A program made the position numbers and the translations under genes. From the IMG/VR virus record IMGVR_UViG_3300045988_122518: a DNA stretch of 46,683 nt, one strand, 5' to 3'. This DNA is from a virus. Under the pieces are notes generated by a model. The model did no database searches, was not told where the DNA came from, and saw only the letters and a list, made by a program, of their open reading frames with translations. This document shows, one piece after another, positions 470-44,220 of this stretch (position 1 is its first letter; every line of letters starts with the position of its first letter).

Positions 470-832
470 ATGAAAAACGTTTCCAAAATCATCACCATGG
501 CCATTGCCATCATTCTCTCCGTGTCTTTCTTCGGATTGCACGACCATACAACCGCGGAAGCCTGTGAGGAAGCCCCCCAGTCCTACGACCTCTCGGTCAT
601 TGAGAATTGGTGCGGTGCAGGCACGGAACGCGGAAGTATTCGTTTCGTCGGTGCAGAGGTCTACGCACGCGAGGGTGATACCCTGACGCTCATTGACGAG
701 CAGGGCAATCTGTGGGACGTGGAAGCACTCAACATTGATGACAACGACTTCTTGCTCTTGTGGATTAACGACAATGACACTGATACTGTGGAAGATGATA
801 CAATCATTAAGGTATGGAGAGAGGCTTATTAA
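470..832 (+). CDS. Small secreted protein (120 aa) with an N-terminal signal peptide
   Basis: RBS aagaaagagg 8 nt upstream. Hydrophobic N-terminus MKNVSKIITMAIAIILSVSFFG..AEA. Terminator hairpin follows at 815-850. Confidence 0.6.
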   Translation: MKNVSKIITMAIAIILSVSFFGLHDHTTAEACEEAPQSYDLSVIENWCGAGTERGSIRFVGAEVYAREGDTLTLIDEQGNLWDVEALNIDDNDFLLLWINDNDTDTVEDDTIIKVWREAY

Positions 833-862
833 GTCTCTCTCTTTCTTGCGGATCGGCGAAGA

Positions 863-880
863 TTGTTAAAAAATTAACAA
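863..880. promoter_or_regulatory. 18-bp perfect palindrome TTGTTAAAAAATTAACAA (operator-like), about 25 bp upstream of the -35 at 903
   Basis: Perfect dyad symmetry. An identical 27-nt block (cggcgNagattgttaaaaaattaacaa) recurs at 1278-1304, and a variant TTGTTAAAATTTTAACAA lies at 3941-3958. Confidence 0.55.
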
Positions 881-902
881 GCAGAGAAGAGTAAAAAAGG
901 TC

Positions 903-931
903 TTGACAAATGTGCGGTAATGTGCTACAAT
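903..931 (+). promoter_or_regulatory. Early promoter: TTGACA 903-908, 17 bp, TACAAT 926-931
   Basis: The -35 lies within ggtcTTGACAaat, identical to the promoter at 1324. Confidence 0.6.
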
Positions 932-7207: not shown

Positions 7208-7660
7208 ATGAAAGCTACTGGTATTGTTCGCAGAATTGATGACCTTGGACGTGTGGTTATCCCGAAAGAGATTCGCCGGACTTTGAAGATTCGAGAGGGC
7301 GACCCGCTTGAAATCTTCATTGAAGACAACGACTGCGTTTGCTTCAAGAGATATTCAGTGCTTGGCTCTTTGACCGAAGAAGCTCTGCGAGTTGCTATCA
7401 CAATGGCGTCAAATTCCGGCCTGCGTCCCATCGCAATCTATGACACTACCGTGAAACTGCGGGGCATGGAAAACTTTCCGCCTTATGTTTCGACCCAGTG
7501 GGATTTTAAAAGAAAGCCGTTTGTTTTCAATAACACTTATGGCGTTTACCCGATTTGTGCGGACGGCGACCTTGTGGGTTATGCGGTTTGCGACCAGCAG
7601 GACATGGGTTGCGAAATGGACATGATTGTCCGCTACCTCAGCATTGTGTCTGAACGCTAA
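7208..7660 (+). CDS. AbrB/SpoVT-family swapped-hairpin DNA-binding regulator (150 aa)
   Basis: N-terminus MKATGIVRRIDDLGRVVIPKEIRRTLKIREGDPLEIF matches the AbrB/MazE/SpoVT N-domain signature (..GIVRKVDELGRVVIP.E.RR.L.I...D.LEI). This comparison is from memory, not a database search. Confidence 0.6.
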   Translation: MKATGIVRRIDDLGRVVIPKEIRRTLKIREGDPLEIFIEDNDCVCFKRYSVLGSLTEEALRVAITMASNSGLRPIAIYDTTVKLRGMENFPPYVSTQWDFKRKPFVFNNTYGVYPICADGDLVGYAVCDQQDMGCEMDMIVRYLSIVSER

Positions 7661-10979: not shown

Positions 10980-11360
10980 ATGGCTACTTCTACTTCTACC
11001 ACTAAGAAGCTCACCAAGCGCGACCGTTTCGAGGCTCTGCTTAAAATGAGCGAGGTTCAGGCAAATCCTGACATGGTGGCGTTCATTGAGCATGAGATTG
11101 AACTGCTCGCCAAGAAGAACGCGGGCGACAAGAAGCCCACGGCCAAGCAGATGGAGAATGACGCCGTGAAGCAGGTCATTCTGGACGAGATGACCGCGAA
11201 TCCCGACAAGCTGTATACCGTAACCGACCTCATCAAGGGCGTTCCCGAGCTTGCGGACTACTCCAACCAGCGCGTTTCCGCTCTTCTGCGTCAGATGATT
11301 GACGCGGGTGCGGTTGTCAAGACGGTTGACAAGCGCAAGTCCTACTTCTCCCTCGCGTAA
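10980..11360 (+). CDS. Paralog A of a three-member family, possibly a winged-helix DNA-binding protein (126 aa)
   Basis: Promoter ctaTTGACAacctgcttcgcctatgaTATAAT. Shares TKKLTKRDRFEALLK..EHEIELL..KKNAGDKKPTA..QRVSALLRQMI..KRKSYF with 13540-13917, and the core FxEHEIELLxKK with 34343-34759. Confidence 0.55.
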   Translation: MATSTSTTKKLTKRDRFEALLKMSEVQANPDMVAFIEHEIELLAKKNAGDKKPTAKQMENDAVKQVILDEMTANPDKLYTVTDLIKGVPELADYSNQRVSALLRQMIDAGAVVKTVDKRKSYFSLA

Positions 11361-13539: not shown

Positions 13540-13917
13540 ATGTCTACTTCTACTGTTAAGAAGCTCACCAAGCGCGACCGTTTCGAGGCTCTGCTCAAAC
13601 TGTCCGAGGTTCAGGCTGACCCCGCCATGGTTGAGTTTATCAACCACGAAATCGACCTGCTGTCCCGCAAGAACGCGGGGGACAAGAAGCCGACCGCGAA
13701 TCAGATTGCCAACGACGGCTACAAGGACATTATCTTTGCTGAGCTGTCCGCGAATCCTGACAAGCTCTACACCGTGACCGAACTCATCAAGAACGTGGAC
13801 GGTCTGGGCGACCTCACCAACCAGCGCGTTTCCGCTCTTCTGCGTCAGATGATTGAAGCGAACGGCGTCGAGAAGATTGTGGACAAGCGCAAGTCCTACT
13901 TCCGTCTCGCCCACTGA
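13540..13917 (+). CDS. Paralog B of the three-member family (125 aa)
   Basis: About 65% identical to 10980-11360. Terminator gggggagcgcctga..tcaggcgctccc at 13921-13960. Confidence 0.55.
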   Translation: MSTSTVKKLTKRDRFEALLKLSEVQADPAMVEFINHEIDLLSRKNAGDKKPTANQIANDGYKDIIFAELSANPDKLYTVTELIKNVDGLGDLTNQRVSALLRQMIEANGVEKIVDKRKSYFRLAH

Positions 13918-16248: not shown

Positions 16249-16638
16249 TCATACAAGCAACTCCTCCAACTTTGTTTTAAATGCACTATCAAGAATATCA
16301 TCAGCAAGCGTTCTCTTACTGAGATCCACATCCTCAGATCCAGGAGCAACAGAATTAGTAGCCTGCGGTTTCTCTTCTAATACAGGCTTCACATATCTAT
16401 ACTCACTCTCAATATATTCAACCCTACCCTGCTCATTAATTCGACCAAGAACTTTACCATGAAAAACCAACTTATTACAGTCGTCCCAAATAAGATATGC
16501 GCCTCGCGTATCTTCCCTATTAAAAAACTCTTTTTTAGTAGTTGCAATTACATTCCAATTGCGGAAGACACCTACCTTTTCTCCATTATTCTCTTTTAAG
16601 GTTTTAGCATCAAATTTCATTTCATTATTCCTTTTCAA
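16249..16638 (-). CDS. ORFan protein (129 aa), minus strand
   Basis: Lies in the AT-rich minus-strand island. A weak RBS aaaaggaataatgaa sits upstream on the minus strand. Confidence 0.4.
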   Translation of the reverse strand: MKRNNEMKFDAKTLKENNGEKVGVFRNWNVIATTKKEFFNREDTRGAYLIWDDCNKLVFHGKVLGRINEQGRVEYIESEYRYVKPVLEEKPQATNSVAPGSEDVDLSKRTLADDILDSAFKTKLEELLV

Positions 16639-17107
16639 ATTTTGATTTCATTTTCCTAAACGTTCCCCGGAATAGACACCCCTACTTTACGCAGAAATAA
16701 CCTACCCCGAGATTTCATTTCAAAATTATATTTCTTTCTTTTATTATATATATATTATAATATATTATTTATTAAATGTCAATTGACTCTTGTAAGAATG
16801 GATTCTCTTCTATTGATTCAGGTCTATCCTCATATTTTATTTTAATTGGTTTTGTCTCATCTGGAACAACAAAATAAATAGTATCATCTTTCATATATAG
16901 ATCAGGTTTTATCATATTTGTTTTATCTATCATCTTATCAAACTATTCTTGCGTTCCTCTTACAAATCTTATTATTGACATATTACCTTTTCCTCCTCTT
17001 ATTACATCTTCATATATCATTACCTTTTACTCCTTTTACTCTCATTACTACCCCTGAATTACCCAGCCGATATATATTAAATATTATCTATTATATATAT
17101 ATTAATA

Positions 17108-17340
17108 GGAACTTTTTGTTCCGAAAATATAGGCAATTCGGAACTAACGGTTCCAAACATAAGGGGCATTTTGGAACTAACGGTTCCGCAGTCCCTAATA
17201 ATTCATCACGTTTTAAATGAATGGAACTAACGGTTCCGAATTTAATGTTAAAATTCAAATTTGTCTTCTTTCGGAACTTTTTGTTCCACTTTATTATTAT
17301 TAATTATCTATTTTTGAATAACAACCTATCCTTTTGGAAC
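17108..17340. repeat. Array of six GGAAC-N5-GTTCC inverted repeats (iteron/operator-like)
   Basis: Copies at 17108-17122, 17140-17154, 17173-17187, 17223-17237, 17273-17287 and 17326-17340. Spacers are TTTTT or TAACG. Centre-to-centre distances are about 32, 33, 50, 50 and 53 bp. Flanked by AT-rich tracts at 16735-16790 and 17075-17107. Confidence 0.8.
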
Positions 17341-17589
17341 TTTTTGTTCCGGAAAATCATTACAGTTATCATAAAAATCATATTTTCCTTCTGCGGTTTC
17401 GACTAAATAGTTATTATTCTTTAAATCATTTATGCCAGCATCAATGGCTTTGCGGACTGCCCTTGCTTCACTCGCCTTTGAATAATCTTTTCCTAACCAA
17501 TTGGCATAGGCGGTCGGATTCATAGTCCAAACAAAATTATTAGTATTACCAGCTAAATATAAATATAATCTTAAACCATTCAATGTCAA
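17326..17589 (-). CDS. Winged-helix replication-initiator / replisome-organizer N-domain-like protein (87 aa to TAG; may extend by TAG read-through)
   Basis: LRLYLYLAGNTNNFVWTMNPTAYANWLGKDYSKASEARAVRKAIDAGINDLKNNNYLVETAEG resembles the wHTH N-domain of phage/plasmid initiators (RepA_N / phage_rep_org_N type). Its 3' end overlaps the iteron array. Its stop is TAG. Confidence 0.4.
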   Translation of the reverse strand: MTLNGLRLYLYLAGNTNNFVWTMNPTAYANWLGKDYSKASEARAVRKAIDAGINDLKNNNYLVETAEGKYDFYDNCNDFPEQKVPKG

Positions 17590-17678
17590 ACTCCCAGTAG
17601 CCTAACCCAACGTAGGAGTGTTTATTGAAGTAAAATTACCACTCTATAAAACTTCTTTATGAATCTTAAATAGGCTCA

Positions 17679-17855
17679 TTATTTCTCGCCCATTAATTCA
17701 TCCAGAGCCTGAACTAACTCCGGAGTCTTTTCGTATATCCAACACATAAAGTTAGGCTTCCGCGGATTCGCGGTTGTTGTTATTGGATATATTCCTTTCT
17801 TTTCTAATTCTAAATATATTCTTAATGAATATATAATTTTATTGGCATTTGGCAT
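17679..17855 (-). CDS. Small ORFan protein (58 aa), minus strand
   Basis: Strong RBS aaaggagtcgctaatATG on the minus strand. Confidence 0.45.
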   Translation of the reverse strand: MPNANKIIYSLRIYLELEKKGIYPITTTANPRKPNFMCWIYEKTPELVQALDELMGEK

Positions 17856-17884
17856 ATTAGCGACTCCTTTAAGTAATTAAAATA

Positions 17885-18442
17885 TTATTCTAAATATTTA
17901 AACGGAGCCAATCTTGATACTTTCTTATTATGTTCCGATTGGAAAATATAATCTAATGGAAGCTGAATTCCATCTTTAATCGGATAAGCATAAAATTCGA
18001 GACAATCTTTGCGTTCTCTTAAATATCCATGATGAACTAATAAGTCAAAATTAAATACAATGTCTTCTATATCTTTACAATACTAAATATCTGTATTCAA
18101 GATATCATTAAAATGAATATAATCTCCATCTTTCTTATTCATTACATAACACCATAATTCAAAATTAATATAATAAGCAAATGTGTATGTGAATAAATAA
18201 AGCGGAACTCCATTATATGCTTTATGTGAAGCCAAAGGCGGAATCTCCCTATTTATTTTAATAGGTTTAGTAAAATCTAATACCGCTCCTGTTTCATACA
18301 AATCATAATTATCAGGACCATTCTTTATAACTTGATAATGTTCCTTTTCAGCAATCTATTCAATATCTTTAACCGCTCTCATACTACCTTTCTTATAATA
18401 GTATTTATCGTGGAAAAAAGTTATCAATTCTTTTTTAGTCAA
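17885..18442 (-). CDS. Minus-strand protein (about 185 aa) intact only if two in-frame TAG codons are read as sense
   Basis: Strong RBS aaaggaggaggac then TTG start. An internal ATG lies at 18382. TAGs at 18360-18358 and 18085-18083 are in frame, and the single frame runs to TAA 17887-17885. The track shows only a 72-aa fragment at 18083-18301. Confidence 0.4.
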
Positions 18443-18770
18443 TTTATAAGTCCTCCTCCTTTTCTTTTTAATTGTTCTATAATAAATAAAAATTTTTTCA
18501 ATACTTTTAATTGCGTTTGCCCATAAATTTTTAAATATTTTTCTAAAAGTAATAATTTGTCTTACATTTTAATACAAAATGGTAAAAATTTTCTACAATT
18601 TTAACTAACGCGGTTTTCCCGTCTAATGTTCCTTCTATCCTAAGCATAGCGATCTCTAATACCTACATAGGCGACTATGAAAAATTGCCTACAATTTTTA
18701 CCTATTTTAATTACATTTAATATGTTTGCCCAAACGCGGTTTATTTTTCATTTAATTCAAAAAACATTTA

Positions 18771-18799
18771 TTGATTTTTATTAAATTTTAATATATAAT
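18771..18799 (+). promoter_or_regulatory. Class-2 promoter variant (TTGATT 18771-76, 17 bp, TATAAT 18794-99)
   Basis: Divergent from the minus-strand island. Drives the 18841+ gene cluster. Confidence 0.5.
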
Positions 18800-18840
18800 A
18801 TAAATATAAAATAAAGAAAAACTATTAAAGGTGATAAAAA

Positions 18841-22216: not shown

Positions 22217-22951
22217 ATGATTCCTGGACTTTATGAAATTTTTAATACGCGCTGGGGCGGTCAGACGGTCTGGGTATCCTCTGATTGGCATTTTGGTGAT
22301 TCGGATTTGCGGATTGGCCACCCCAACCGTATTTCTGACGATGACCTTGTAAAACTTTTAAACAGCAAAGCCGGTCGGAAAGATGTGCTTCTTTGTTTGG
22401 GGGATGTAGGTACGATCTCCTATGTGCGGAAACTGCGCGCCGGTTATAAGGTTCTTATCAAGGGCAACCATGATGCGGGATCTGAAAACTATAAGCGTAA
22501 AATCATCAAGAAGAAATTCTCTATGGATTATTACCAAAAGGACGAAGCACTTATGGAAATGAAGCGTCTTTATCCTGATTGTAAGTATTCTATTGATTCG
22601 GGATTTGATTTCCACACTCCCTTTGAATATTGGGAGATTACCGCGGATAACGGTCTTTTTGATGAAGTGTATGAGGGCGTTCTTGTTATTGGTGAGAAAC
22701 TTATACTTTCTCACGAACCGATTAAGCAGGACTGGGCTCTCGATCTTCACGGCCACGACCACAATCATAAAGAGACGGACATCTATCACAAGAATGTTTG
22801 TGTAGATGTGTTTGGCCCCGCTCCTTTGAATCTAAACCAGTTCATGAAAAATGGTCCAACCGCAAAGATCGGGAGCGTCCACAGAAAAACAATCGACACC
22901 GCGACCAAGAGAAAGCAGAAGCGAGGAGGTAAAAAGATATGGGAGAAATGA
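22217..22951 (+). CDS. Calcineurin-like metallophosphoesterase (244 aa)
   Basis: Ordered MPP motifs DWHFGD, GDVG, GNHD, SHEP and GHDHNH (D-x-H ... GD ... GNH[DE] ... H ... GH-x-H). RBS aaggaggatataaATG. Confidence 0.6.
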   Translation: MIPGLYEIFNTRWGGQTVWVSSDWHFGDSDLRIGHPNRISDDDLVKLLNSKAGRKDVLLCLGDVGTISYVRKLRAGYKVLIKGNHDAGSENYKRKIIKKKFSMDYYQKDEALMEMKRLYPDCKYSIDSGFDFHTPFEYWEITADNGLFDEVYEGVLVIGEKLILSHEPIKQDWALDLHGHDHNHKETDIYHKNVCVDVFGPAPLNLNQFMKNGPTAKIGSVHRKTIDTATKRKQKRGGKKIWEK

Positions 22952-29805: not shown

Positions 29806-30090
29806 ATGACTTATATTTCTAAGCCTGTTGTGCGTCATGATCAGTTCATTGAATGGCTTCATGACACTTTCCCCGATTGGACTGAGGATGATATAAATGA
29901 TGTGGTGGAATTCCTTCTTGATTATGGTAATTATGTAGAAATTCGTTTTATTGGCAATGACGAAGATCTATCTATCTGCGATGAAGATGAATTTGAAGTC
30001 TTTGCCAATGTGAACCGCGTCTATGCGGAACTCCGCAAATTCTTTTGCTATACCGATTACAAGACCATGCTTGTATGTTGCGATTGGTAA
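29806..30090 (+). CDS. Tandem paralog 1 (94 aa)
   Basis: About 60% identical to 30124-30408 (LHDTFP.W.E.DI.DV...L......E..FI.NDEDLS..DEDE.E.FANVNRVYAELRK.FC.TDY...LVC..W). Confidence 0.55.
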   Translation: MTYISKPVVRHDQFIEWLHDTFPDWTEDDINDVVEFLLDYGNYVEIRFIGNDEDLSICDEDEFEVFANVNRVYAELRKFFCYTDYKTMLVCCDW

Positions 30091-30123: not shown

Positions 30124-30408
30124 ATGGATTATACTTTGAAACCTATTGTATATGGAAGTCAATTTAGAATTTGGCTTCATGATACTTTCCCCGAATGGTC
30201 AGAGAATGATATTGATGATGTTTTAGATATTATCCTTGGTGATTGGAGTTATACCGAAGTTTATTTCATCAACAATGATGAAGATTTATCTCTTGTTGAT
30301 GAAGATGAGCGCGAAATTTTCGCTAATGTGAATCGTGTTTATGCCGAGCTTCGTAAGGTCTTTTGTGACACTGACTATGTAAGTATTCTCGTATGTCGTA
30401 GTTGGTAA
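30124..30408 (+). CDS. Tandem paralog 2 (94 aa)
   Basis: See 29806-30090. Confidence 0.55.
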   Translation: MDYTLKPIVYGSQFRIWLHDTFPEWSENDIDDVLDIILGDWSYTEVYFINNDEDLSLVDEDEREIFANVNRVYAELRKVFCDTDYVSILVCRSW

Positions 30409-32647: not shown

Positions 32648-34252
32648 ATGGCTAATTTATTTGAGCTCCTTTCCAAAGAAGATTGTGAAAAGATTGAAGG
32701 ATATATCCGTAATTTTGCGGGTCTCGGTGGAGATAGTTCCGATATGAAGGCATCTCTCGATTACATTCTCCGCTTTTGGGCTTATAATAAGCAGAATCTT
32801 TACAAGATGTTGGGAGATAATCTTATCATTTCTCGTAAGGTAAGTTATTCTCGCTCTTATGAAGAGATGAGTGAGGATTTTTATGATTATTTCGGTCGAA
32901 ATAGTGATGGATATGAATTCCGAGATACCTTTAATAATAAGGTAAGAGATCTTTATCTCAGGACAACCATCTCTAATACTCAGTATCTTAATTTGGCAAG
33001 TCTTTTGGATGTTGATCCTTTAATGTCTAATATTTATGATGGTGAATCTTTTAAATTCACTTATAACAATAAAACTCTTATGATTAATAAGGGTATGAAG
33101 CTTAGCAAGATGCTTGGTAAGATGAGTGATATCTTGGAGATTGACCGCGATATCTATGAAAAGTTCCGTATTGCTCATTCTCAGTTCCTTAATCAGAAAA
33201 ATATTTCTGGCGAACTTTGTCTTTCTGTTCATCCTCTTGACTATATCACTATGAGTGATAATAATTGCGGTTGGGATTCTTGTATGAGATGGCAGAATGG
33301 TGGTGGCGAATATCGTCAGGGAACCGTTGAGATGATGAATTCTCCCATTATCCTCGAAGCTTATCTTAAATCTGATAAGGATATGGAAATTTGGTATAAA
33401 GTTGGTAAGCCTGTGATGTGGAATAGTAAGCGCTGGCGTGAGCTTTTCATTGTAGATAAAAGCCTTATTCTTGGTATCAAGGGTTATCCTTATTGTAATG
33501 AAAATCTTGAAAGCATTTGTCTCGCTTGGATCAAGAAGCTCGCTGAACAGAATCTTGGCTTTGGTCCTTATACCAAGTATTTAAATAAGATTCAGAATTA
33601 CAGTAATAATATTATTGGTGAGTTTGATAGAAATATTTATTTCAATCTTGATACCAATTTCATGTATAACGATATCTATTCAGAGCATAATGCTTACGTT
33701 TCCACTAAGATTCCTACGGACGAAAACATTGATCTTAACTACTCGGGTGAATCTGAGTGTATGTGTTGTGGAGAGCTTCTTGATGATTCTCTCTTCGATG
33801 ATAGAGAGAATAACGCGGAAATGACTATCTGTCCAAGTTGCTCGGGTGCAGTAAAGTGCGATAAGTGTGGCGATATTGTTTATGTCGATGACACTTATAA
33901 TGTCGATGGAAAAACTTACTGCGCTTATTGTTATGATGAAAGTACAGAAATTTGTCCTTGTTGCAGAGTCCGCAAAGATTATGATGACATGAAGCAAATC
34001 CGCCTCCGATTCCAGAAGAAGCCAGTTGGATTCTATGTGGATATTTGTTGGGATTGTTGTGGAGATAAAAAAGTAAAAACCTTTTTCAGTGGTGAAATTG
34101 AAGAAGACAGAGACGGTTGGCGCTCCAATTATTATGTCGATGGAGAAACTCTCACTAAAAAGGGTAGAGACCTCTTTGATATCAATGAAAAGGAGTTTAT
34201 TTCTTGGGTTAATGGCACTAACCCAAATCAAAGACCTTCTTTGATTTTTTAA
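32648..34252 (+). CDS. Large protein (534 aa) with a C-terminal multi-CxxC zinc-ribbon cluster; paralog of 36760-38190
   Basis: Shares a core (L/C)SVHPLD(Y/F)...W(D/R)SC...GEYR(Q/A)G...NSK(R/K)WR with 36760-38190. C-terminus has CMCCGE, CPSCSG, CDKCG, CAYC, CPCC, CWDCCG. Confidence 0.55.
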   Translation: MANLFELLSKEDCEKIEGYIRNFAGLGGDSSDMKASLDYILRFWAYNKQNLYKMLGDNLIISRKVSYSRSYEEMSEDFYDYFGRNSDGYEFRDTFNNKVRDLYLRTTISNTQYLNLASLLDVDPLMSNIYDGESFKFTYNNKTLMINKGMKLSKMLGKMSDILEIDRDIYEKFRIAHSQFLNQKNISGELCLSVHPLDYITMSDNNCGWDSCMRWQNGGGEYRQGTVEMMNSPIILEAYLKSDKDMEIWYKVGKPVMWNSKRWRELFIVDKSLILGIKGYPYCNENLESICLAWIKKLAEQNLGFGPYTKYLNKIQNYSNNIIGEFDRNIYFNLDTNFMYNDIYSEHNAYVSTKIPTDENIDLNYSGESECMCCGELLDDSLFDDRENNAEMTICPSCSGAVKCDKCGDIVYVDDTYNVDGKTYCAYCYDESTEICPCCRVRKDYDDMKQIRLRFQKKPVGFYVDICWDCCGDKKVKTFFSGEIEEDRDGWRSNYYVDGETLTKKGRDLFDINEKEFISWVNGTNPNQRPSLIF

Positions 34253-34342: not shown

Positions 34343-34759
34343 ATGACTAATGAAATTAAAGTATCTAAGCGCGATTATCTGACCGCAATTATCGGAGCTA
34401 TGCATACTGGTGAGATCAAGTATGATCCCAATGACGTGATCGCATTTTGCGAGCATGAGATTGAGTTGCTTGATAAGAAGACTGCCAAGGCTAAGGAGCG
34501 TGCGGCCGCCAAGCGTGCTGAGGGCGATGAGTTGACTGAGCAGATTTATAATGTTCTTTATGACGACGAGTTTATGACCATCCCTGAGATCGTCAAGGCT
34601 CTCGGCGATGAGAGTGTTTCCGCACAGCGTGCCAGTTATCGACTCCGCACTCTTGTAGCTGAGAAGCGCGCGGAGAAGACTGAGGTTTCTATCCCGGGCG
34701 CTGATGGCGGTAAGGCTTCCAAGAAAGTGGCTTATAAGAAAATTGTCGCTGAGGACTAA
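34343..34759 (+). CDS. Paralog C of the 10980/13540 family (138 aa)
   Basis: Conserved block AFCEHEIELLDKKTAKAK. Terminator at 34786-34813. Confidence 0.5.
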   Translation: MTNEIKVSKRDYLTAIIGAMHTGEIKYDPNDVIAFCEHEIELLDKKTAKAKERAAAKRAEGDELTEQIYNVLYDDEFMTIPEIVKALGDESVSAQRASYRLRTLVAEKRAEKTEVSIPGADGGKASKKVAYKKIVAED

Positions 34760-35782: not shown

Positions 35783-36889
35783 GTGAGAGGTTTTAAAACT
35801 AATGAACTTTGGTTATTTGAATATCTGGTTCGCTCGACGCAAGATGAGTTAAGGGAATATGTTGCCGATGTATTAAAATCTAAATATACTGAAGTAGTTA
35901 TTACTAAAGAGTATGTTTGTGCAGTTGGCGATATTCCGATTGCTTTAGTGGCTCATCTTGATACCGTGTTTGAGAAACCGGTCAAAGATTTATATTATGA
36001 CACAAGAAAAAATGTGCTTTGGTCGCCTGAAGGTCTTGGCGCAGATGATAGAGCAGGAGTATATGCGATTCTTCATATTTTGAGGAATACATCTTTGCGC
36101 CCTTCTATTATTTTTACCACTGATGAAGAAATTGGTGGATTAGGCGCCGAAGCATTAGTATTACAATATTTTGAGTGTCCATTTCCTGATTTGAAATATA
36201 TTATTCAGTTGGATAGACAAGGCACAAATGATTGTGTGTTTTATGACCTTTACAATCCTAAATTCATCGATTACATTGAATCTTTTGGATTTGTAGAGGA
36301 TTTTGGCACGTTTAGTGATATTAGTGTTTTATGTCCTGAATGGAAAATTTGTGGTGTAAATCTTTCAGTTGGATACAAGAATGAACATAGTCATGTTGAA
36401 ACATTAAATGCGGGTGCTCTTTTTGATACGATTAATAAGGTAATCCGCATGCTCCAAGAGAAAGATATCCCTAATTTTGAGTATTATCGTAATTATCATA
36501 ACATTTGGTTCGATAATGTTTGTAAGAATTTTCCAACTGATGGCGATGGATTCTACGTTCATTGTAGAGGATGCGGTCAGTTATTTAGTGAATATGAAAC
36601 ATTTCCAGTAAAGGGATTAGACGGACATACATGTTTTTATTGTCCTGATTGTATTCCCAGTAATGTTGAATGGTGTGCGGAGTGTGAAGAGGCATTTGAA
36701 ATTGACCCTGCGAACCCACACAGCGAGTATTGTAAAGATTGTATTGGAGGATTAGTCAAATGTCATATGACTTCGACATCGAAAGCATTAGAGAACAGTT
36801 CAACAAAGTCATCAGTTACTCCCAAGGAATCAGTAATCCAAAAACAGAAGAACTATTCGAAAGGTTCCTCGAAGCCAAAAAAGACTTAA
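35783..36889 (+). CDS. M20/M28/M42-type Zn-dependent peptidase-like protein with a Cys-rich C-terminal extension (368 aa)
   Basis: Motifs ALVAHLDTVF, GADDRAG and DEEIGGLGA match the metal-binding H/D/EE positions of the M42 (FrvX/YsdC) and M20 folds. GTG start with RBS taggagaataaactGTG. Confidence 0.45.
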   Translation: MRGFKTNELWLFEYLVRSTQDELREYVADVLKSKYTEVVITKEYVCAVGDIPIALVAHLDTVFEKPVKDLYYDTRKNVLWSPEGLGADDRAGVYAILHILRNTSLRPSIIFTTDEEIGGLGAEALVLQYFECPFPDLKYIIQLDRQGTNDCVFYDLYNPKFIDYIESFGFVEDFGTFSDISVLCPEWKICGVNLSVGYKNEHSHVETLNAGALFDTINKVIRMLQEKDIPNFEYYRNYHNIWFDNVCKNFPTDGDGFYVHCRGCGQLFSEYETFPVKGLDGHTCFYCPDCIPSNVEWCAECEEAFEIDPANPHSEYCKDCIGGLVKCHMTSTSKALENSSTKSSVTPKESVIQKQKNYSKGSSKPKKT

Positions 36890-38190
36890 TTAAATTTTTC
36901 CACGGTCATTTAATTTATGAATGGCCGGAAAAGGTATCTTTTTCCTTAGATGATAAAACCAAAGAACATCGTCTTGAGGAGTTTCTTGAAACAATTAATT
37001 ATACTTATAATAATGAAGACTTAAAAGATTTTATTTCAGTAAATAAAGAAGGATTCTTTGATAATACAGTTATAGATACTTATTTTTATAAGGATAAAAA
37101 GATTCCAAGAGGAATGAAATTAGTTAAGGCTTTTAAGTATTTTGAAGAGAATCCGCGTTCTTTGGAAGATATTCAAAATTATGCAAGTCGTATTATCCAA
37201 GAGGATAAGATTGAGGGAACATTATGTTTCTCAGTTCATCCTTTGGATTTTTTAAGCGTAAGTGAAAATACTTATAATTGGCGTTCTTGCCATGCGCTTG
37301 ATGGTGAATACAGAGCAGGAAATTTATCTTATATGGTAGATAGAAGCACTTTTATTTGCTATTTGCGCGGAGCGGAGAATCAGAAACTTCCGCATTTCCC
37401 CGAAGACGTTCTTTGGAATTCTAAGAAATGGCGTATGCTTCTTTATATGGAAGATAAACGACGCGGTTTGATGGCTGGTCGCCAATATCCTTTTATGACA
37501 ACTAATGCTTTAATTAAAATTAAAGATATTATCAATACTTTTGATAAGACCTTTCAGTTGCGTGATTGGGTAGATGGAGGTATTAACACTGTCTCTAATA
37601 GGATGAGCATTACTTCTTTTGGTGAAGAAACTATCGGATTATCTGAAACATGGATTCCTATTTTATCTCGTTTATATCCTATTGGTGATATTGTTGGAGA
37701 TATTGGCGAGCATACTCTTCAATATAATGATTTGCTTTATTCCTCTTGTTATTTACCTATTTACAGTTTAAAATTGTATTATTATCCATTGGAGACTGAT
37801 CTTCCTCATTGGTCTATTGGTGGTGATGTTCCTTGCTTACAATGCGGTAAAACTGTAATCGAAAGTGGAGAATATATGCGATGCGGAGATTGTGAATTCA
37901 GTTATGGAGTAAACGAAGACGATAACTATGGGTATTGCGCTTGTTGCGGTTCTCGTATAATTCTTGATGAAGCAAATTCCGTAGGCGATGAGAATGAATT
38001 AGTTTGCGATAGTTGTGCGGATACTTATTGTAAACGATGCGAATGTTGTAATAATTTATATTATACAGAAGATATTCACTATCATAAAGGAACTGATATG
38101 TATTTATGTCCTTGGTGCTTTAGAGATGCTGGTGAAGAAAAAGTTAATAATTTTAGGTCTTTAAAAGACTTTATACATAATTTTAGTTAA
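36760..38190 (+). CDS. Large protein (476 aa), paralog of 32648-34252, with C-terminal CxxC clusters
   Basis: ATG 36760 with RBS ggagga + 9 nt. Overlaps the upstream peptidase-like gene by 130 nt in another frame. CLQCGK, CGDCEF, CACCGS, CDSCAD, CKRCECC, CPWC. Confidence 0.55.
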   Translation: MSYDFDIESIREQFNKVISYSQGISNPKTEELFERFLEAKKDLIKFFHGHLIYEWPEKVSFSLDDKTKEHRLEEFLETINYTYNNEDLKDFISVNKEGFFDNTVIDTYFYKDKKIPRGMKLVKAFKYFEENPRSLEDIQNYASRIIQEDKIEGTLCFSVHPLDFLSVSENTYNWRSCHALDGEYRAGNLSYMVDRSTFICYLRGAENQKLPHFPEDVLWNSKKWRMLLYMEDKRRGLMAGRQYPFMTTNALIKIKDIINTFDKTFQLRDWVDGGINTVSNRMSITSFGEETIGLSETWIPILSRLYPIGDIVGDIGEHTLQYNDLLYSSCYLPIYSLKLYYYPLETDLPHWSIGGDVPCLQCGKTVIESGEYMRCGDCEFSYGVNEDDNYGYCACCGSRIILDEANSVGDENELVCDSCADTYCKRCECCNNLYYTEDIHYHKGTDMYLCPWCFRDAGEEKVNNFRSLKDFIHNFS

Positions 38191-38627: not shown

Positions 38628-39183
38628 ATGGCAATTCCAAAAGCTATAGAACATATGCGTAGTGGAAGTGGTAGTTTAGAAATTATTCCAATTACTTCTA
38701 CTGATGGATTAACTTACACAGGAACCGCAAGATCTATTAAAGAATATAAAGACGGAATGATTATTGGCCTTATTCCAAATATGAATAATGTTGCGACAAA
38801 TCCAATTACTAATATAACAATAAATATAAATAATTTAGGAGCATTAAAATTAACTCAATATTATATTAAAAAAGAACATTCTAATAATGGATTGGGGTGT
38901 TGGCATTAGAATACTGCTGTAGAAGCAAATTTTCTATATAAAGATGAAGCATTTATCGGATAGATACAATTAGGGTTATCTAGTGGTGATTATATTTTAC
39001 CCATTAATCCAGGATTAGACTTAGCTTAGATTACTAATGGTTCTATGGGGTCTAATTTATCTGTCACCGCTAATTCTTCTTATTTAAACAATAATATTTT
39101 AAGAAATATTAAAGTATCTACTTCAGCACCTACTTCTTCAGATGGAAATGTTGGAGATATTTGGATTTAGTATTTTGCTTAAT
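38628..39183 (+). CDS. Protein (185 aa) requiring read-through of five in-frame TAG codons
   Basis: RBS ataaggaggtcatttaaATG. The frame is open from 38628 to TAA 39181-39183 apart from TAGs at 38907, 38964, 39027 and two further positions. The track stops at 38909. Confidence 0.45.
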
Positions 39184-39198
39184 AAAGGAGGAATTTAA

Positions 39199-40614
39199 AT
39201 GCCAAATATTTATAATCCTTCTGGAACTTCTATAACTGATTATTCTTCTATTAAATTTATTCCAGGAGATATTGTTAATAGTGGCTATTCAGGAGCTGTA
39301 AATCCAATAAAACTTCCAGCGGGGAACTATCAATTGGAATGTTGGGGAGCTTATGGCGGAATTGGCTATTCGGGATCTTTAACGTCATCAACAACAACTT
39401 CATGGATATATATAGGAAGTGGTAATGCAACTAGTTATTTTAACATTAGTAATGATCCAAATTATTATTTTCGTCAAGATGGAAATGACTGGATAGCTAC
39501 TAATGGAGGAATAAATTCAAGTACTGCCACAACTACATTAACTTGTACTTCAGCGGGGACTTATAAAATTTCATATTATTATAAAACTGAAGTAAATTAT
39601 GATAAAGTTACTTTAACTGTTGGAGGAACTACAGTTTTAAATGCGGTTTCTGGATCAAGTTCTCTTACTACCGCAGGTAGTTATTCTTTATCATCAGGAT
39701 CTACTATCGTAATGACTTATACTAAAGATAGCTCAAATTCAGAAACTGGTGAAGAAGTTTATTTTTAGATTTAGAAACAAGAAAATAATACTACTTATAC
39801 TCCTGCAAGTTCAAAAAATAGTTATTGGGGTGGAACAGGAGGATATTCTACAGGAATTCTTTCTTTATCAACTCCTACTTCTATTTATTTATACACCGGA
39901 GGTTAGGGTAGCTATTCAAGTGATAGTGAAAAAGGTAAGGTAGTTAATGGTGGATTTAATGGAGGAGGTAGCTCCAGAATTAGATGGTATACTTCTGCTT
40001 ATACTTCAGGGGGAGGGGGTGGAGGAGCTTCCGACATTCGCATAGGTCAAGATTCTCTTTATGCTCGAGTAATCGTTGCCGGTGGAGGTGGTGGTGGAGC
40101 AGGAGAAAGTAATTCTTCTATTAAATAGGGTGGCGGATTGACGGGTAACTCTGCGGTTGAAGAATATAAGGCTACATAGACTAAAGCAGGAACAAATGGA
40201 TCTTTTGGTCAAGGTGCTAGCGCCAGCGGGTCTACTAATTATAATTATGGCCCCGGTGGTGGTGGCGGCGGCTGGTATGGTGGTGGTGCTTCTACTAATG
40301 TTAGTGATAGCTCTGCTGATTATAGAACTTATAATGGTGGTGGTTCTGGCTATGTATATACTTCATCAACCGCTTCTAATTATCCTTCTGGTTGTTTGTT
40401 AAATAGTAACTATTATTTAACAAATACTTCTACTACAATGGGATATAATAGAACTAATCCTGGAGGGACGTAGGGATATATTCGCATTACTGTATTATCA
40501 CCATTAAATGTAAAAATCAATTCTAATACTTATGCTCCCATTAAAGCGATATACACAAAAATAGATAATACGACTTGGAAAGGAGGAATAACTACATGGC
40601 AACCTATGACTTAA
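39199..40614 (+). CDS. Gly-rich fiber/structural-like protein (471 aa) with seven in-frame TAG codons
   Basis: RBS aataaaggaggaatttaaATG. TAGs at 39766, 39772, 39904, 40126, 40177 and 40471 were phase-checked. Contains collagen-like GGGGGGAG and GGGGGGGWYGGG tracts and the motif CLLNSNYYLT. Confidence 0.5.
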
Positions 40615-41921
40615 CTTCTTCAATTCCTTCTTCTTCTTCTTTAAAAACAGGAGATATATTAAATTGTCCTTATAGTGGAACTTATAAATCTATTACTCTT
40701 CCAAAAGGTACTTATAAATTAGAATGCTGGGGCGCATAGGGCGGTACTGGAAATCCGACTGCTAATATAGGCGGATTGGGTGGATATAGTTATGGAAATA
40801 TAACGCTTGCAGAAAATACTGTCTTATTTTTATATACAGGGTCTAAAGGATATGATAGAGTAGAAACAACCGTTTTTAATGGTGGGGGTATTGCTGAAGG
40901 CAGTAGTAACTATAATTCTGGTAGTGGCGGTGGAGCTTCTGATATTAGAATAAAAACAGACTCTCTTTACGCCCGCGTAATCGTTGCCGGAGGAGGTGGC
41001 GGAGGAGCCGGAGCCAATGAAACTACTTATATTGGAGGATACGGAGGGGGCACATTAGGAGGATCTTCTTCAGCTAATTCTTCTGGGTCTAGCGGTACTG
41101 CTTCTGGAGGTAATTAGACTGGGGCAGGAACTTTTTCTAATCCTGGCTCTTACACTGGATTAACTGGATCTTTCGGTCAAGGTGGTAATTATAGTGGAGG
41201 CGGTGACCGTTCAGGCGGTGGAGGCGGCGGTGGAGGCGGCGGTGGCTGGTATGGTGGCGGAGCAGGATCATATGGAGTTGCTGGGGCTGGCGGTTCTGGC
41301 TATGTATATACTTCATCAACCGCTTCTAATTATCCTTCTGGTTGTTTGTTAAATAGTAACTATTATTTAACTTCTGCATCAACTATCGCAGGTAATTCTT
41401 CATTTATTTCTCCAACAGGATCATTTGAAACAGGTCATGGTGGAAATGGCTATATAAGAATTACTATTTAGTCTATAGCAAATTGGGCTTATTCTACTGT
41501 GTCAATATCTGCTCCCACTTATAACAAATAGAACACCTCTTCTTGGACTTTATCTCCAAGCACTTGTCGATATTTTTCTTTTACTCCTACTATTTCAGGG
41601 GACTTTATTGTTTATTCTAATTCTTCGATAGACACTTATGGATATTTAACATCAAATATTACTTCTCTTAATAGTAGTGGGTAGCCTTCTTCTAATATTT
41701 TAGTTAGTGATGATGATTATGCAAAAAAATATGGCGGTACTGGAGCTAATTTTGGTATTTGTTATAAAGTTACTGCTGGAACTACTTATTATATATATGT
41801 TAAGCCTTATCGTGATAGTACGGCAAATAGTTCAGTATATTTAACTTATTATATGGCTCATCCTGACAGTAGAGTATATGTAAAAATAAATAGCACAACA
41901 TGGAAATTAATAACTAATTAA
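40596..41921 (+). CDS. Paralogous Gly-rich fiber/structural-like protein (441 aa) with five in-frame TAG codons
   Basis: RBS gaaaggaggaataactacATG. TAGs at 40737, 41115 and three further positions. Shares LECWGA[Y/*]GG, DIRI.TDSLYARVIVAGGGGGGAG, SGYVYTSSTASNYPSGCLLNSNYYLT and GYIRIT with 39199-40614. Confidence 0.5.
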
Positions 41922-41928
41922 AAATTTT

Positions 41929-41957
41929 TTGACATTTTTAAAAAAATAATATATAAT
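41929..41957 (+). promoter_or_regulatory. Class-2 promoter (TTGACA 41929-34, 17 bp, TATAAT 41952-57)
   Basis: Followed by a 230-nt untranslated leader before the HNH gene. Confidence 0.5.
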
Positions 41958-42188
41958 ATATTTATAAAATAAAGAAAGACCTTTACAGCAAAAATAACTT
42001 CCAGAATAGACTAAAGGTTAGGTCATAATCCTTCAAGATTAAGTTAATGGTTCAAATCCATTTTCCGGACAAAGTTAAGGTCTTGTTAAGTAAAATCTTG
42101 GCAAAATTTTCAGTCAAATACCGGTCAAAAGAAATAAAAGTATTTTACTGAAAATTTATATATAATAGTAAAATTAGGAGGTTATTAT

Positions 42189-42674: not shown

Positions 42675-42769
42675 TCCCGGAGGGACTGGGGCGTGACTCC
42701 AAATCTCGTGGTAATGCGTTCGACTCGTACCCCTGGTGCCATTTAATATTTTAAACAAAAAGAACTTTT

Positions 42770-42798
42770 TTGATTTTATTAAAAATATATAATATAAT
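42770..42798 (+). promoter_or_regulatory. Class-2 promoter (TTGATT 42770-75, 17 bp, TATAAT 42793-98)
   Basis: Conserved leader atatatagaaagttgagaaagg. Confidence 0.5.
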
Positions 42799-42832
42799 AT
42801 ATATAGAAAGTTGAGAAAGGAGAAAATAAATA

Positions 42833-43128: not shown

Positions 43129-43168
43129 AAATATATAAAGTAAGGATTTTAAAAAGTCCTTCTTTTAT

Positions 43169-43561: not shown

Positions 43562-43648
43562 ACCCCTCCCTGGGAATGCGTCGAAGGCTTGCGGACTTTG
43601 AACGCAGGTGGTTGGCGACTCCATCTATACATAAATAAGTCGCATTTC

Positions 43649-44216: not shown

Positions 44217-44220
44217 TTAT

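What the first reader, a model, noticed from the sequence alone, without database searches (positions are those of the whole stretch)
16650..17600. Candidate replication origin: six GGAAC-N5-GTTCC inverted repeats and AT-rich tracts next to a winged-helix initiator-like gene
Six copies of the 15-bp dyad GGAAC-(TTTTT|TAACG)-GTTCC lie between 17108 and 17340. Three have the TTTTT spacer and three have TAACG. Centre spacings are about 32, 33, 50, 50 and 53 bp, roughly 3 and 5 helical turns. Pure A/T tracts sit at 16735-16790 and 17075-17107. The minus-strand gene 17326-17589 overlaps the last dyad. Its product has a wHTH-like block (ARAVRKAIDAGINDLKNNNYLVETAEG) reminiscent of phage and plasmid initiator N-domains. 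The region is the only minus-strand, AT-rich island in an otherwise plus-strand genome, and it sits at the early/late boundary. Iterons overlapping or adjoining the initiator gene plus a DNA-unwinding element is the classic ori layout. A regulatory operator array for a dimeric repressor is the alternative reading.
Basis: partly seen in the sequence, partly recalled or inferred. Interest (0 to 1): 0.7.

Follow-up and report, generated by a model that had tools for sequence, protein, structure and literature searches.

The report
Origin-like protein-binding array in a phage gene
Six exact copies of a 15-bp palindrome run from the end of a small DNA-binding-protein gene into a neighbouring AT-rich stretch in a roughly 190-kb gut phage that reads the TAG stop codon as an amino acid; the arrangement is conserved across many related phages and most resembles a replication origin built into its initiator gene, though a gene-regulatory role is not excluded.

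Summary
Six exact GGAAC-N5-GTTCC dyads lie at 17108-17350, far more than chance gives.

The gene model needed correcting. This phage reads TAG as a sense codon, so the winged-helix gene is 17248-17679 (-), 143 aa. Two of the dyads lie inside its 3' end, where each encodes the peptide EQKVP.

In nine independent lineages, with protein identity down to about 35%, the exact DNA dyad is kept. It is always in the same reading frame, and further copies lie in non-coding DNA just downstream. The last dyad abuts a conserved TATTAATATATATA tract. Selection therefore acts on the DNA, not on the peptide.

Best reading (about 0.55): an iteron origin embedded in its initiator gene, as in lambda O, SPP1 gp38 and pSK41 Rep. 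Main rival (about 0.25): an operator array controlling a promoter in the AT tract.

The parts
17108..17122 (.). Dyad 1 (GGAACTTTTTGTTCC on +, GGAACAAAAAGTTCC in gene sense). It is the terminal site and directly abuts the AT tract.
   Evidence: The junction 'GGAACAAAAAGTTCC-TATTAATATATATA' is identical in the window, L004, L005 and L008.
17140..17154 (.). Dyad 2 (TAACG spacer), non-coding.
   Evidence: The 32-bp spacing to dyad 1 is conserved in L004, L005 and L008.
17173..17187 (.). Dyad 3 (TAACG spacer), non-coding.
17223..17237 (.). Dyad 4 (TAACG spacer), non-coding, 11 bp past the stop codon of gene C.
17273..17287 (.). Dyad 5, inside gene C. It encodes the peptide VEQKVPK.
   Evidence: reading frame 2: xxG GAA CAA AAA GTT CCn.
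17336..17350 (.). Dyad 6, inside gene C. It encodes the peptide PEQKVPK.
17070..17107 (.). AT tract, 37 of 38 A/T, conserved start TATTAATATATATA. Candidate DNA-unwinding element. Alternatively the -10 region of a promoter that lacks a -35 element.
   Evidence: third least stable 40-mer of the window. (conserved across lineages). TATAAT sits 12 nt after the dyad in the window, but the hexamer is not conserved in L005 or L008.
17074..17157 (.). Conserved core: the last two dyads, the 17-bp spacer (AATTGCCTATATTTTC) and the AT tract.
   Evidence: This stretch is 90.6% identical to L005 over 85 bp, whereas the adjoining coding DNA is about 70% identical and the proteins about 50%.
17248..17679 (-). 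Gene C, 143 aa with 4 in-frame TAG codons. Winged helix at residues 1-105, disordered tail at 106-143 carrying two EQKVP repeats, and a conserved C-terminal F-x-F.
17679..17855 (-). Gene B, 58 aa, DUF5659-like. Its stop codon overlaps the ATG of gene C.
   Evidence: weak DUF5659 match. (29% identity, E 2e-9, to the DUF5659 gene directly upstream of the initiator-like P0051 in L029). The gene is present in L004, L005, L024, L025, L031 and L032.
17885..18442 (-). Gene A, 185 aa, TTG start after a GGAGG ribosome-binding site, 2 in-frame TAG codons. Its C-terminal half is a winged helix paralogous to gene C.
   Evidence: hhalign probability 89%, E 2e-6.
16772..16981 (-). Gene D, 69 aa, strong ribosome-binding site (AGGAGG), one in-frame TAG. 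First gene downstream of the array. It is not conserved in L001.
16754..16782 (-). Consensus sigma-A-type promoter TTGACA-17-TATAAT. It drives gene E.
   Evidence: 12 of 12 matches. (one of a family of similar promoters in the window).
16249..16620 (-). Gene E, 123 aa, last gene of the minus-strand island. It converges on the plus-strand block that ends at 16242.
   Evidence: Proteins that look similar by eye lie downstream of the array in L004, L005 and L032; this similarity was not tested.
18443..18840 (.). Divergent, AT-rich (26% GC) control region between gene A and the plus-strand block that starts at 18841. It has no GGAAC dyad here, unlike the relatives.
   Evidence: In L004, L005, L008 and L024 there are 1-2 dyads upstream of gene A; in the three whose sequence was read (L004, L005, L008) they sit just upstream of its ribosome-binding site.

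Best explanation
The array is the cis-acting site of a small winged-helix protein (gene C). It most likely works as an iteron-type replication origin embedded in, and extending just beyond, the initiator gene.

Proposed mechanism:
1. The A-B-C operon is transcribed leftwards from the 18.45-18.84 kb control region. Genes A, C and D can be translated in full only when TAG is decoded as Gln.
2. Dimers of protein C bind GGAAC-N5-GTTCC. The two half-sites lie one helical turn apart around an A-tract.
3. Six dimers over 243 bp, with the last three at a conserved spacing of about three turns, build a nucleoprotein complex. This complex stresses the adjoining 38-bp AT tract so that it opens.
4. The disordered tail and its conserved C-terminal F-x-F recruit a helicase, primase or other replisome partner, standing in for the C-terminal domain of larger initiators.
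5. In relatives, an extra dyad upstream of gene A gives autoregulation.

What is shown: the sites exist and are not chance; they are conserved; selection acts on the DNA; the protein has a winged-helix fold; it is homologous to HTH_36 initiator-like phage proteins; a longer relative has the same layout of iterons inside the gene.

What is inferred: that C, rather than its paralogue A, binds the dyads; that the AT tract melts; that the tail recruits a partner; and that replication starts here.
For: 1. The array is not chance: 6 exact sites, 0 of 100 shuffles reach the observed count.
2. It is conserved in nine independent lineages. These hold 29 exact dyads inside the gene, all in the frame xxG-GAA-CAn-nnn-GTT-CCn, and 23 in non-coding DNA. 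Background codon usage gives about 0.05 per site that an EQxVP peptide would be encoded as an exact dyad.
3. The middle residue x varies (K, I, V, N, F, A, S, G). It corresponds to the unconstrained spacer.
4. L032 has 10 dyads, 9 of them non-coding.
5. The terminal core of two dyads plus the AT tract is more conserved (90.6%) than the neighbouring coding DNA.
6. The AlphaFold model has mean pLDDT 84.6. It shows a winged helix at residues 1-105 and a disordered tail.
8. The profile search finds 249 cluster representatives. Eight of the ten longer members scanned reach Pfam's HTH_36 cut-off (two fall just below it). Of the ten proteins scanned against PHROGs, six were longer members, and four of those six, plus the 244-aa P0066, match 'replication initiation O-like', 'DnaD-like helicase loader' and/or 'replication initiation protein'.
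9. P0051 lies in a temperate-phage early region: integrase, DUF5659, P0051, then RuvC. It has five TGTGTAC-AAAAA-GKACACAG iterons at 23-bp spacing directly after its winged helix, followed by AT-rich DNA. Its upstream DUF5659 gene is homologous to window gene B.
10. Literature. pSK41 Rep binds Rep boxes centrally within its own gene, and the linker encoded by the ori is dispensable. The pPR9 Rep N-terminal domain is pfam13730 (PMC5703833). [quoted passage not shown] SPP1 gp38 binds repeats of oriL inside gene 38, next to an AT-rich unwinding element (PMC6316719).
11. There is only one cluster in about 60 kb of phage sequence examined.
Against: 1. Gene C matches no Pfam, PHROGs or NCBIfam model directly. 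It has no sequence match in the PDB.
3. The protein has no folded C-terminal domain, and no helicase, loader or primase gene lies nearby.
4. Genes A, C and D carry in-frame TAG codons. In this window TAG is otherwise confined to fibre-like and homing-endonuclease genes. That pattern is unexpected for an early initiator.
5. The AT tract resembles the -10 part of this phage's own promoters.
6. A distant homologue sits on a 5.2-kb plasmid that has its own Rep_3-like gene (assigned by eye from its sequence), so not every family member need be the initiator.
7. The skew data are uninformative.
Confidence: 0.55

Rival explanations
1. The array is a set of operators for a transcription regulator. Dimers of C (or of A) bind the dyads to repress or activate a promoter in the conserved AT tract that drives the downstream genes D and E. 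Where present, an upstream dyad lets the protein autoregulate the A-B-C operon. No replication role is involved.
For: The sites are perfect dyads, which is typical of dimeric repressors. In L004, L005 and L008, 1-2 dyads sit just upstream of gene A's ribosome-binding site; L024 also has one upstream of gene A, though its flanks were not read. The AT tract contains TATAAT 12 nt after the last dyad, with no -35 hexamer, so the dyad occupies about -39 to -25. AT tracts of this composition elsewhere in the window are promoters. Hairpin-prone leaders and a ribosome-binding site follow the tract in L004, L005 and L008. In-frame TAG codons fit a late regulator.
Against: Six to ten sites spread over 240-350 bp are far more than a promoter needs. 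The candidate -10 hexamer is not conserved: TATAAG in L005, TATATG or TATATA in L008, and it is shifted by 2 bp in L004. No other promoters in the window carry the dyad. Family relatives sit in phage replication modules and carry initiator annotations. Autoregulation through inverted repeats is also normal for initiators.
Confidence: 0.25
2. The array is a centromere-like or genome-organising site. Protein C acts as an adaptor, in the manner of ParR or TubR. It coats the array, and its C-terminal F-x-F hook captures a cytoskeletal or ATPase motor encoded elsewhere in the roughly 190-kb genome. This would serve segregation of a plasmid prophage or positioning of the genome.
For: The array has 6-10 repeats. 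The architecture of a DNA-binding domain, a disordered linker and a conserved terminal hydrophobic motif matches, from general knowledge, the way ParR and TubR tails engage their motors. TubR appears among the weak Foldseek hits.
Against: There is no motor gene in the operon and no ORF over 80 aa with a Walker A or tubulin signature in the whole 46.7-kb window; the loose actin-like pattern had one hit, in the 244-aa metallophosphatase gene at 22217-22951. Centromeres normally adjoin their par operon. The relatives sit in replication-module positions in small phages. The TubR hit is not significant (E about 1).
Confidence: 0.08
3. The array is a DNA-packaging recognition site (pac/cosB-like). 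Protein C would be a TerS- or gpNu1-like specificity factor whose tail recruits the large terminase, with cutting in or near the AT tract.
For: From general knowledge, pac and cosB sites often lie in or beside the gene of the recognition protein, and lambda gpNu1 is a winged helix. In-frame TAG codons suggest late expression. The 180-kb contig behind L001 ends about 350 bp beyond the array.
Against: The end of the L001 contig falls in a 60-bp tandem repeat, which is an assembly break. The locus is internal and collinear in a 190.9-kb and a 163.9-kb contig. No terminase gene lies next to it, and the large neighbouring ORFs have no terminase hits. Protein C has no oligomerisation domain.
Confidence: 0.04
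4. The repeated peptide EQKVP is the selected feature, as a protein motif, and the DNA palindromes are a by-product of it.
For: EQxVP repeats are conserved in the protein alignments.
Against: There are 23 exact dyads in non-coding DNA. All 29 in-gene copies use GAA and GTT, and the preceding codon always ends in G, although only 13% of background codons end in G. The only variable residue is the one encoded by the spacer. The tail is predicted to be disordered.
Confidence: 0.01

Closest known systems
pSK41-type RepA_N replicons (and the pfam13730/HTH_36 variant pPR9) of Firmicutes plasmids
   Different: There is no RepA_N or HTH_36 Pfam hit for the window protein. There is no C-terminal domain of about 120 aa, only a 38-aa disordered tail ending in F-x-F. 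Most sites lie beyond the stop codon. The element sits in a roughly 190-kb phage, not a plasmid. The gene contains sense TAG codons.
Phage lambda O / ori-lambda and SPP1 gp38 / oriL (replisome organisers with the origin inside the gene)
   Same: A cluster of dyad-symmetric or repeated initiator sites inside the initiator gene, followed by an AT-rich unwinding element (SPP1: PMC6316719; lambda: general knowledge). Relatives of gene C give sub-threshold hits to Phage_rep_O and hits to PHROGs 'replication initiation O-like'.
   Different: O and gp38 have C-terminal domains that bind the helicase loader, and they are followed by loader and helicase genes. Here there is neither. The direct Pfam match to Phage_rep_O is absent for the window protein and below the cut-off in its relatives.
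P0051-type HTH_36 proteins of small temperate Clostridia phages (locus L029)
   Same: Homologous winged helix (profile E 5.9e-12). A homologous small DUF5659 gene lies directly upstream. Poly-A-centred semi-palindromic iterons lie directly after the winged-helix coding part, followed by AT-rich DNA.
   Different: P0051 is 359 aa with a C-terminal region that matches PHROGs initiator families. Its iterons are 5 copies at 23-bp spacing with different arms (TGTGTAC/GKACACA). None of these proteins has been characterised experimentally.
ParR/parC and TubR/tubC centromere-adaptor systems
   Same: A small dimeric DNA-binding protein, an array of many repeats, and a flexible tail with a terminal interaction motif.
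   Different: No adjacent motor gene. A different fold class from ParR, and only insignificant similarity to TubR.

Membership tests
Iteron-type origin embedded in or adjoining its initiator gene (lambda O, SPP1 gp38, pSK41 Rep) | A cluster of at least 3-4 repeated binding sites, unique in the replicon. | tested here: met
   Six exact dyads, no other cluster in the window. Relatives have 5-10. Only about 60 kb of the roughly 190-kb genome could be examined.
Iteron-type origin embedded in or adjoining its initiator gene (lambda O, SPP1 gp38, pSK41 Rep) | Sites overlap the initiator's coding sequence just after its DNA-binding domain. | tested here: met
   Dyads 5 and 6 lie at codons 110-116 and 131-137 of gene C. 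The same holds in nine lineages.
Iteron-type origin embedded in or adjoining its initiator gene (lambda O, SPP1 gp38, pSK41 Rep) | An AT-rich DNA-unwinding element adjoining the sites. | tested here: inconclusive
   A tract of 37/38 A/T abuts the last dyad, is conserved, and is the third least stable 40-mer in the window. Promoters in this phage have the same composition, and melting cannot be tested here.
Iteron-type origin embedded in or adjoining its initiator gene (lambda O, SPP1 gp38, pSK41 Rep) | The initiator carries a domain that recruits a helicase, loader or primase. | tested here: not met
   Only a 38-aa disordered tail (pLDDT about 50) with a conserved C-terminal F-x-F. No loader or helicase gene is nearby. 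A short recruiting motif remains possible.
Iteron-type origin embedded in or adjoining its initiator gene (lambda O, SPP1 gp38, pSK41 Rep) | Supports initiation of replication (ori activity, marker-frequency peak). | not testable with these tools
   No read data and no experiment. GC skew in the window only follows gene orientation.
Pfam HTH_36 (PF13730) | Score above the gathering threshold. | tested here: not met
   No hit at E<=1 for the window protein. Five of the 50 short family members scanned at E<=0.01 match HTH_36, as do all ten longer relatives scanned, eight of them above the cut-off. The link to the window protein is only transitive, through the profile search.
Pfam RepA_N (PF06970), Phage_rep_O (PF04492), DnaD_N (PF21984) | Score above the gathering threshold. 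| tested here: not met
Repressor with operators at a promoter | Sites overlap the core promoter of the regulated gene. | tested here: inconclusive
   The last dyad would span about -39 to -25 of a TATAAT in the AT tract, but that hexamer is not conserved. Relatives, though not the window, have dyads upstream of gene A; in L004, L005 and L008 they lie just upstream of its ribosome-binding site.
Plasmid or phage partition system (ParR/parC, TubR/tubC, ParB/parS) | An NTPase motor gene in the same operon or neighbourhood. | tested here: not met
   No ORF over 80 aa with a Walker A, ParA or tubulin signature anywhere in the window; the single hit to the loose actin-like pattern lies in the metallophosphatase gene at 22217-22951. 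Genes A and B have no such motif.
TerS/pac or gpNu1/cosB packaging recognition | Adjacent large-terminase gene, and a genome terminus or pac cut nearby. | tested here: not met
   The neighbours are small genes of unknown function, and the large ORFs scanned have no terminase hit. The locus is internal in contigs of 190.9 and 163.9 kb. Not every ORF was scanned, and termini cannot be mapped here.
TAG-to-Gln recoded phage (genetic code 15) | In-frame TAG codons in conserved genes that align with sense codons in homologues; a suppressor tRNA(CUA). | tested here: inconclusive
   In-frame TAG codons occur in 8 genes and restore full-length conserved proteins. The TAG at codon 26 of gene C aligns with Gln (CAA) in the standard-code homologue L004. 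No tRNA with a CUA anticodon was found among the 11 tRNAs of this window. It may lie elsewhere in the genome.

The most novel reading that the evidence does not exclude
This could be an origin gated by the genetic code. The initiator (gene C), its paralogue (gene A) and the next gene all need amber suppression to be made. In several relatives the binding sites themselves begin with a sense TAG codon (TAG-GAA-CAA...). Assembly of the origin complex would then be licensed only after the phage switches the cell to its TAG=Gln code. That would couple a second, late mode of replication, or the hand-over from host-driven to phage-driven replication, to the code switch. The minimal initiator would recruit its partner through the C-terminal F-x-F peptide rather than through a folded domain.
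Probability: 0.12. Interest if true: 0.8.

Novelty: new variant of a known kind. Interest (0 to 1): 0.55.

Why it matters
Origins of replication are unknown for essentially all uncultured gut phages that reassign stop codons. This locus is a concrete, conserved candidate that can be tested with a 300-bp DNA fragment and a 143-aa protein.

It also defines an unannotated family of minimal proteins: a winged helix, a disordered tail and a terminal F-x-F hook. The profile search found 249 cluster representatives. At least part of the family keeps its own binding sites inside its coding sequence. That is a clear case of DNA-level selection dictating a repeated peptide (EQxVP).

If the origin reading holds, in-frame TAG codons in the initiator would challenge the view that recoded stops are confined to late structural and lysis genes, and would tie replication control to the code switch. 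If the regulator reading holds instead, the locus is still a compact, conserved control element of a large group of gut phages whose relatives occur in Oscillospiraceae/Clostridia genome bins.

Tried and rejected
- blastn of the region, and tblastn of the protein (P0001), against the GenBank phage collection and PLSDB plasmids found nothing.
- Pfam, PHROGs and NCBIfam gave no hit for genes A, C and D. Genes B and E had only insignificant below-threshold Pfam/PHROGs hits. NCBIfam was run only on genes A and C.
- Profile searches of PDB sequences gave only noise.
- The first AlphaFold model, from 8 sequences, was poor (pLDDT 57.6), and its Foldseek hits were meaningless. Only the 50-sequence model was usable. 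Foldseek on that model still gave no hit with E below 0.3.
- Rfam found only tRNAs in the window.
- The terminator reading of the dyads flagged by the scan was rejected. The stems are 5 bp, there is no U-tract, and the sites are conserved in both coding and non-coding contexts.
- There is no cluster of DnaA boxes near the locus.
- GC skew is dominated by the gene-strand switch and says nothing about the origin.
- The idea that the 180-kb contig ending near the array marks a genome terminus was rejected. The contig ends in a tandem repeat, and two other contigs run through the locus.
- Gene A is not homologous to the 178-aa gene that follows P0051 in L029.
- I first suspected that the fragmented ORFs in 1-16 kb meant a second recoding or frameshifts. 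No alternative stop-codon set opened long ORFs there, and ATG-started ORFs of 90 aa or more, almost all free of TAG, tile the plus strand, so I read the region as a dense run of small plus-strand genes.
Full report
**1. The observation**

The six dyads exist exactly as described, at 17108, 17140, 17173, 17223, 17273 and 17336 (starts). Three have a TTTTT spacer and three have TAACG. Allowing one mismatch, the window holds 8 matches against 0.86 expected, and none of 100 dinucleotide-preserving shuffles reaches 8. At up to two mismatches there is no second cluster.

**2. The genetic code and the gene model**

Standard-code ORFs around the array are short. On the minus strand, the ORF 17326-17589 continues in frame through two TAG codons upstream to an ATG at 17679. 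That ATG overlaps the stop of the preceding gene (TAATG). The ORF also continues through two more TAG codons downstream to a TAA at 17248.

With TAG read as sense, other genes also become full length:
- a 185-aa gene at 17885-18442;
- a 69-aa gene at 16772-16981;
- two Gly-rich fibre-like genes at 39199-41921;
- an HNH gene and a GIY-YIG gene.

The protein database holds a 143-aa protein that is 97% identical, with Q at all four TAG positions. In the standard-code homologue L004, Gln (CAA) aligns with the TAG at codon 26. The phage therefore uses TAG as a sense codon, most probably Gln. No tRNA(CUA) is present among the 11 tRNAs of this window.

As a consequence, dyads 5 and 6 lie inside the gene, each encoding EQKVP, and dyads 1-4 lie just downstream of its stop.

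**3. Genome context**

The window is collinear with a 190.9-kb IMG/VR contig, a 180.2-kb contig and a 163.9-kb contig filed as a 'Mollicutes' genome bin. It is therefore an internal quarter of a phage of roughly 180-190 kb. Family relatives occur in Oscillospiraceae, Acutalibacteraceae and Clostridia genome bins.

The minus-strand island spans 16249-18442 and holds genes A-B-C, the array, then genes D and E. The same island is present in two further related viral contigs.

GC skew simply follows the strand switch.

**4. Conservation and what is under selection**

Homologues of gene C share as little as about 35% identity. All carry one to six EQxVP repeats in a C-terminal tail, and nearly all end in [G/E/D]F-x-F.

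DNA was recovered for nine independent lineages (window, L004, L005, L008, L023-L027). Every EQxVP but two is encoded by an exact GGAAC-N5-GTTCC, always in the frame xxG-GAA-CAn-nnn-GTT-CCn. That gives 29 sites inside the gene. A further 23 exact dyads lie in non-coding DNA, mostly just past the stop codon.

The residue x varies, and it corresponds to the spacer. The codon before the dyad always ends in G and is often TAG. Only 13% of background codons in these genes end in G. From background codon usage, the chance that an EQxVP peptide is encoded as an exact dyad is about 0.05 per site. L032 has ten dyads, nine of them non-coding.

The DNA motif is therefore the selected feature, and the peptide is its by-product.

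The terminal part is the most constrained. The spacing of the last three dyads is about 23-33 bp and then 32 bp. The last dyad abuts TATTAATATATATA in the window, L004, L005 and L008. This 85-bp core is 90.6% identical between the window and L005, whereas the adjacent coding DNA is about 70% identical.

In L004, L005, L008 and L024, one or two extra dyads lie upstream of gene A. In the three whose sequence was read (L004, L005, L008) they sit just upstream of its ribosome-binding site, which suggests autoregulation. The window lacks such a site.

**5. The protein**

Gene C has no direct Pfam, PHROGs or NCBIfam match. With a 50-sequence alignment, AlphaFold gives a confident winged helix for residues 1-105 and a disordered tail for residues 106-143.

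An exhaustive profile search finds 249 cluster representatives. Longer members (244-423 aa) match HTH_36; eight of the ten scanned reach Pfam's cut-off, and Phage_rep_O and DnaD_N score below it. Of the ten proteins scanned against PHROGs, six were longer members, and four of those six, plus the 244-aa P0066, match 'replication initiation O-like', 'DnaD-like helicase loader' and/or 'replication initiation protein'. Five of the 50 short members match HTH_36 at E<=0.01, and two match Rep3_N.

One long member, P0051, lies in the early region of a small temperate phage, between integrase and RuvC. It is preceded by a DUF5659 gene that is homologous to window gene B. Directly after its winged helix it carries five TGTGTAC-AAAAA-GKACACAG iterons at 23-bp spacing, followed by AT-rich DNA. 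Another long member, P0054, lies between integrase and terminase in a small phage contig where no other called gene has an annotated replication function.

Gene A's C-terminal half is a paralogous winged helix.

**6. Comparison with the known**

- In pSK41, the Rep N-terminal domain binds four Rep boxes centrally within the rep gene. The linker encoded by the ori is dispensable, and the C-terminal domain binds primase. pPR9 uses a pfam13730 N-terminal domain instead (PMC5703833).
- RepA_N iterons are described as semi-palindromic direct repeats whose inverted arms converge on a poly-A tract, with most characterised arms at least 5 bp long (PMC7145576). This is the shape of GGAAC-AAAAA-GTTCC.
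- SPP1 gp38 binds repeats of oriL inside gene 38, next to an AT-rich unwinding element (PMC6316719). Lambda O and ori-lambda are analogous (general knowledge).

The locus therefore works like an origin embedded in its initiator gene. It fails direct membership tests for the RepA_N, Phage_rep_O and HTH_36 models, and it lacks a C-terminal recruitment domain.

**7. Rivals**

An operator array that controls a promoter in the AT tract is the main alternative. Points in its favour:
- the sites are dyads, as for dimeric repressors;
- relatives have operators upstream of gene A;
- TATAAT lies 12 nt after the last dyad and has no -35 element;
- AT tracts elsewhere in this phage are promoters;
- TAG-containing genes may be expressed late.

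Points against it: there are six to ten sites, the -10 hexamer is not conserved, and no other promoter in the window carries the dyad.

A centromere-adaptor reading fits the protein architecture but lacks any motor gene. A pac-site reading lacks a terminase neighbour or a terminus. The reading in which only the peptide is selected is excluded.

**8. Verdict**

The locus is a conserved cis-array under DNA-level selection, together with a minimal winged-helix protein related to phage initiators. It is most likely an origin of the type embedded in its initiator gene (about 0.55). It represents a new variant: a truncated initiator with a terminal F-x-F hook, most sites downstream of the stop codon, and sense TAG codons within the initiator gene. 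Function remains untested.

Noticed in passing
window 38628-41921, 42189-42674, 45480-46139, 16772-18442: TAG is used as a sense codon in a subset of genes: the fibre-like Gly-rich paralogues, the HNH and GIY-YIG endonucleases, and island genes A, C and D. ATG-started ORFs of 90 aa or more in 1-16 kb and 19-38 kb are almost all free of TAG. No tRNA(CUA) is present in this window.
   Followed up: partly
window 42000-42070 (promoter 41929-41957): This tRNA-like gene scores 46 bits against the Rfam tRNA model but has an abnormal anticodon loop: 6 nt (CTTCAA) on a 5-bp stem, or 8 nt on a 4-bp stem. ARAGORN reports a two-base 'anticodon'. It sits 43 nt downstream of a perfect TTGACA-17-TATAAT promoter and directly after the TAG-rich fibre genes. 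It could be an unusual suppressor or a frameshift-type tRNA.
   Followed up: partly
window 45289-45364: A second tRNA with a CAT anticodon, directly after tRNA-Met at 45212-45287. Rfam found it (39 bits) but ARAGORN missed it. The array at 42000-46287 holds 11 tRNAs, interleaved with the HNH and GIY-YIG genes.
   Followed up: partly
window 21535, 23841, 24927, 26949, 29738, 30421, 32574, 41934, 42766, 43010, 43103 (starts of 40-mers), and 16738 on the minus strand: Twelve of the window's 15 least stable 40-mers share a repeated intergenic promoter motif: in most a TTGAyw -35 hexamer is visible, followed by about 17 A/T-rich bases, TATAAT, then ATATATA. These 40-mers are pure or nearly pure A/T.
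   Followed up: partly
window 18584-18605 and 18680-18701: Two copies of a second palindromic motif (AAAATTG-N4-CAATTTT-like) lie in inverted orientation in the divergent control region between gene A and the plus-strand block. They may be operators for another regulator, perhaps the gene A paralogue.
   Followed up: no
window 10980-11360, 13540-13917, 34343-34759: Three paralogous genes of 125-138 aa share an (E/N)HEI(E/D)LL motif in the N-terminal half and a C-terminal region that looks like a winged helix by eye. Other paralogue pairs: 29806-30090 with 30124-30408, and the Cys-rich 534-aa and 476-aa proteins at 32648-34252 and 36760-38190.
   Followed up: no
L028 (plasmid pRGF00006, HG796773.1) 540-930, minus strand: This 5.2-kb gut plasmid has its own initiator-like gene (Rep_3-like by eye) and a serine resolvase-like gene. 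It also carries an unannotated homologue of the winged-helix family, about 128 aa, with several in-frame TAG codons. That homologue could be made only when amber suppression is available, which hints at a plasmid that depends on a recoded phage.
   Followed up: partly
L001 10770-10901: The 180-kb contig ends in a 60-bp tandem repeat (AAATAATACCCCGTAGGCAGGGAGGATCGTAGATCCGAGTCGCCTGCCTGCGTGGCGAACGC). Gene D is replaced there by two copies of a short hairpin element (GGGCACAAGTGCCC). The stretch between the array and gene E is therefore variable among close relatives.
   Followed up: partly
L007 (CAMELE010000001.1): A 163.9-kb contig deposited as an 'uncultured Mollicutes bacterium' genome bin is collinear with this phage. 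It is almost certainly a phage genome that was mis-binned.
   Followed up: partly
L004 1605-1650, L005 1820-1860, L008 6480-6530: A long hairpin (14-16 bp stem) follows the AT tract in three lineages. The sequences differ while the stem is kept; L004 has a perfect 15-bp stem with a TTCG loop. The window and L001 lack it. Its role is unknown: leader RNA, terminator or single-strand initiation site.
   Followed up: no
window 7208-7660: This gene has an AbrB/SpoVT-type N-terminal domain (PHROG 4681, E 5.5e-20), which is consistent with a Firmicutes host.
   Followed up: no
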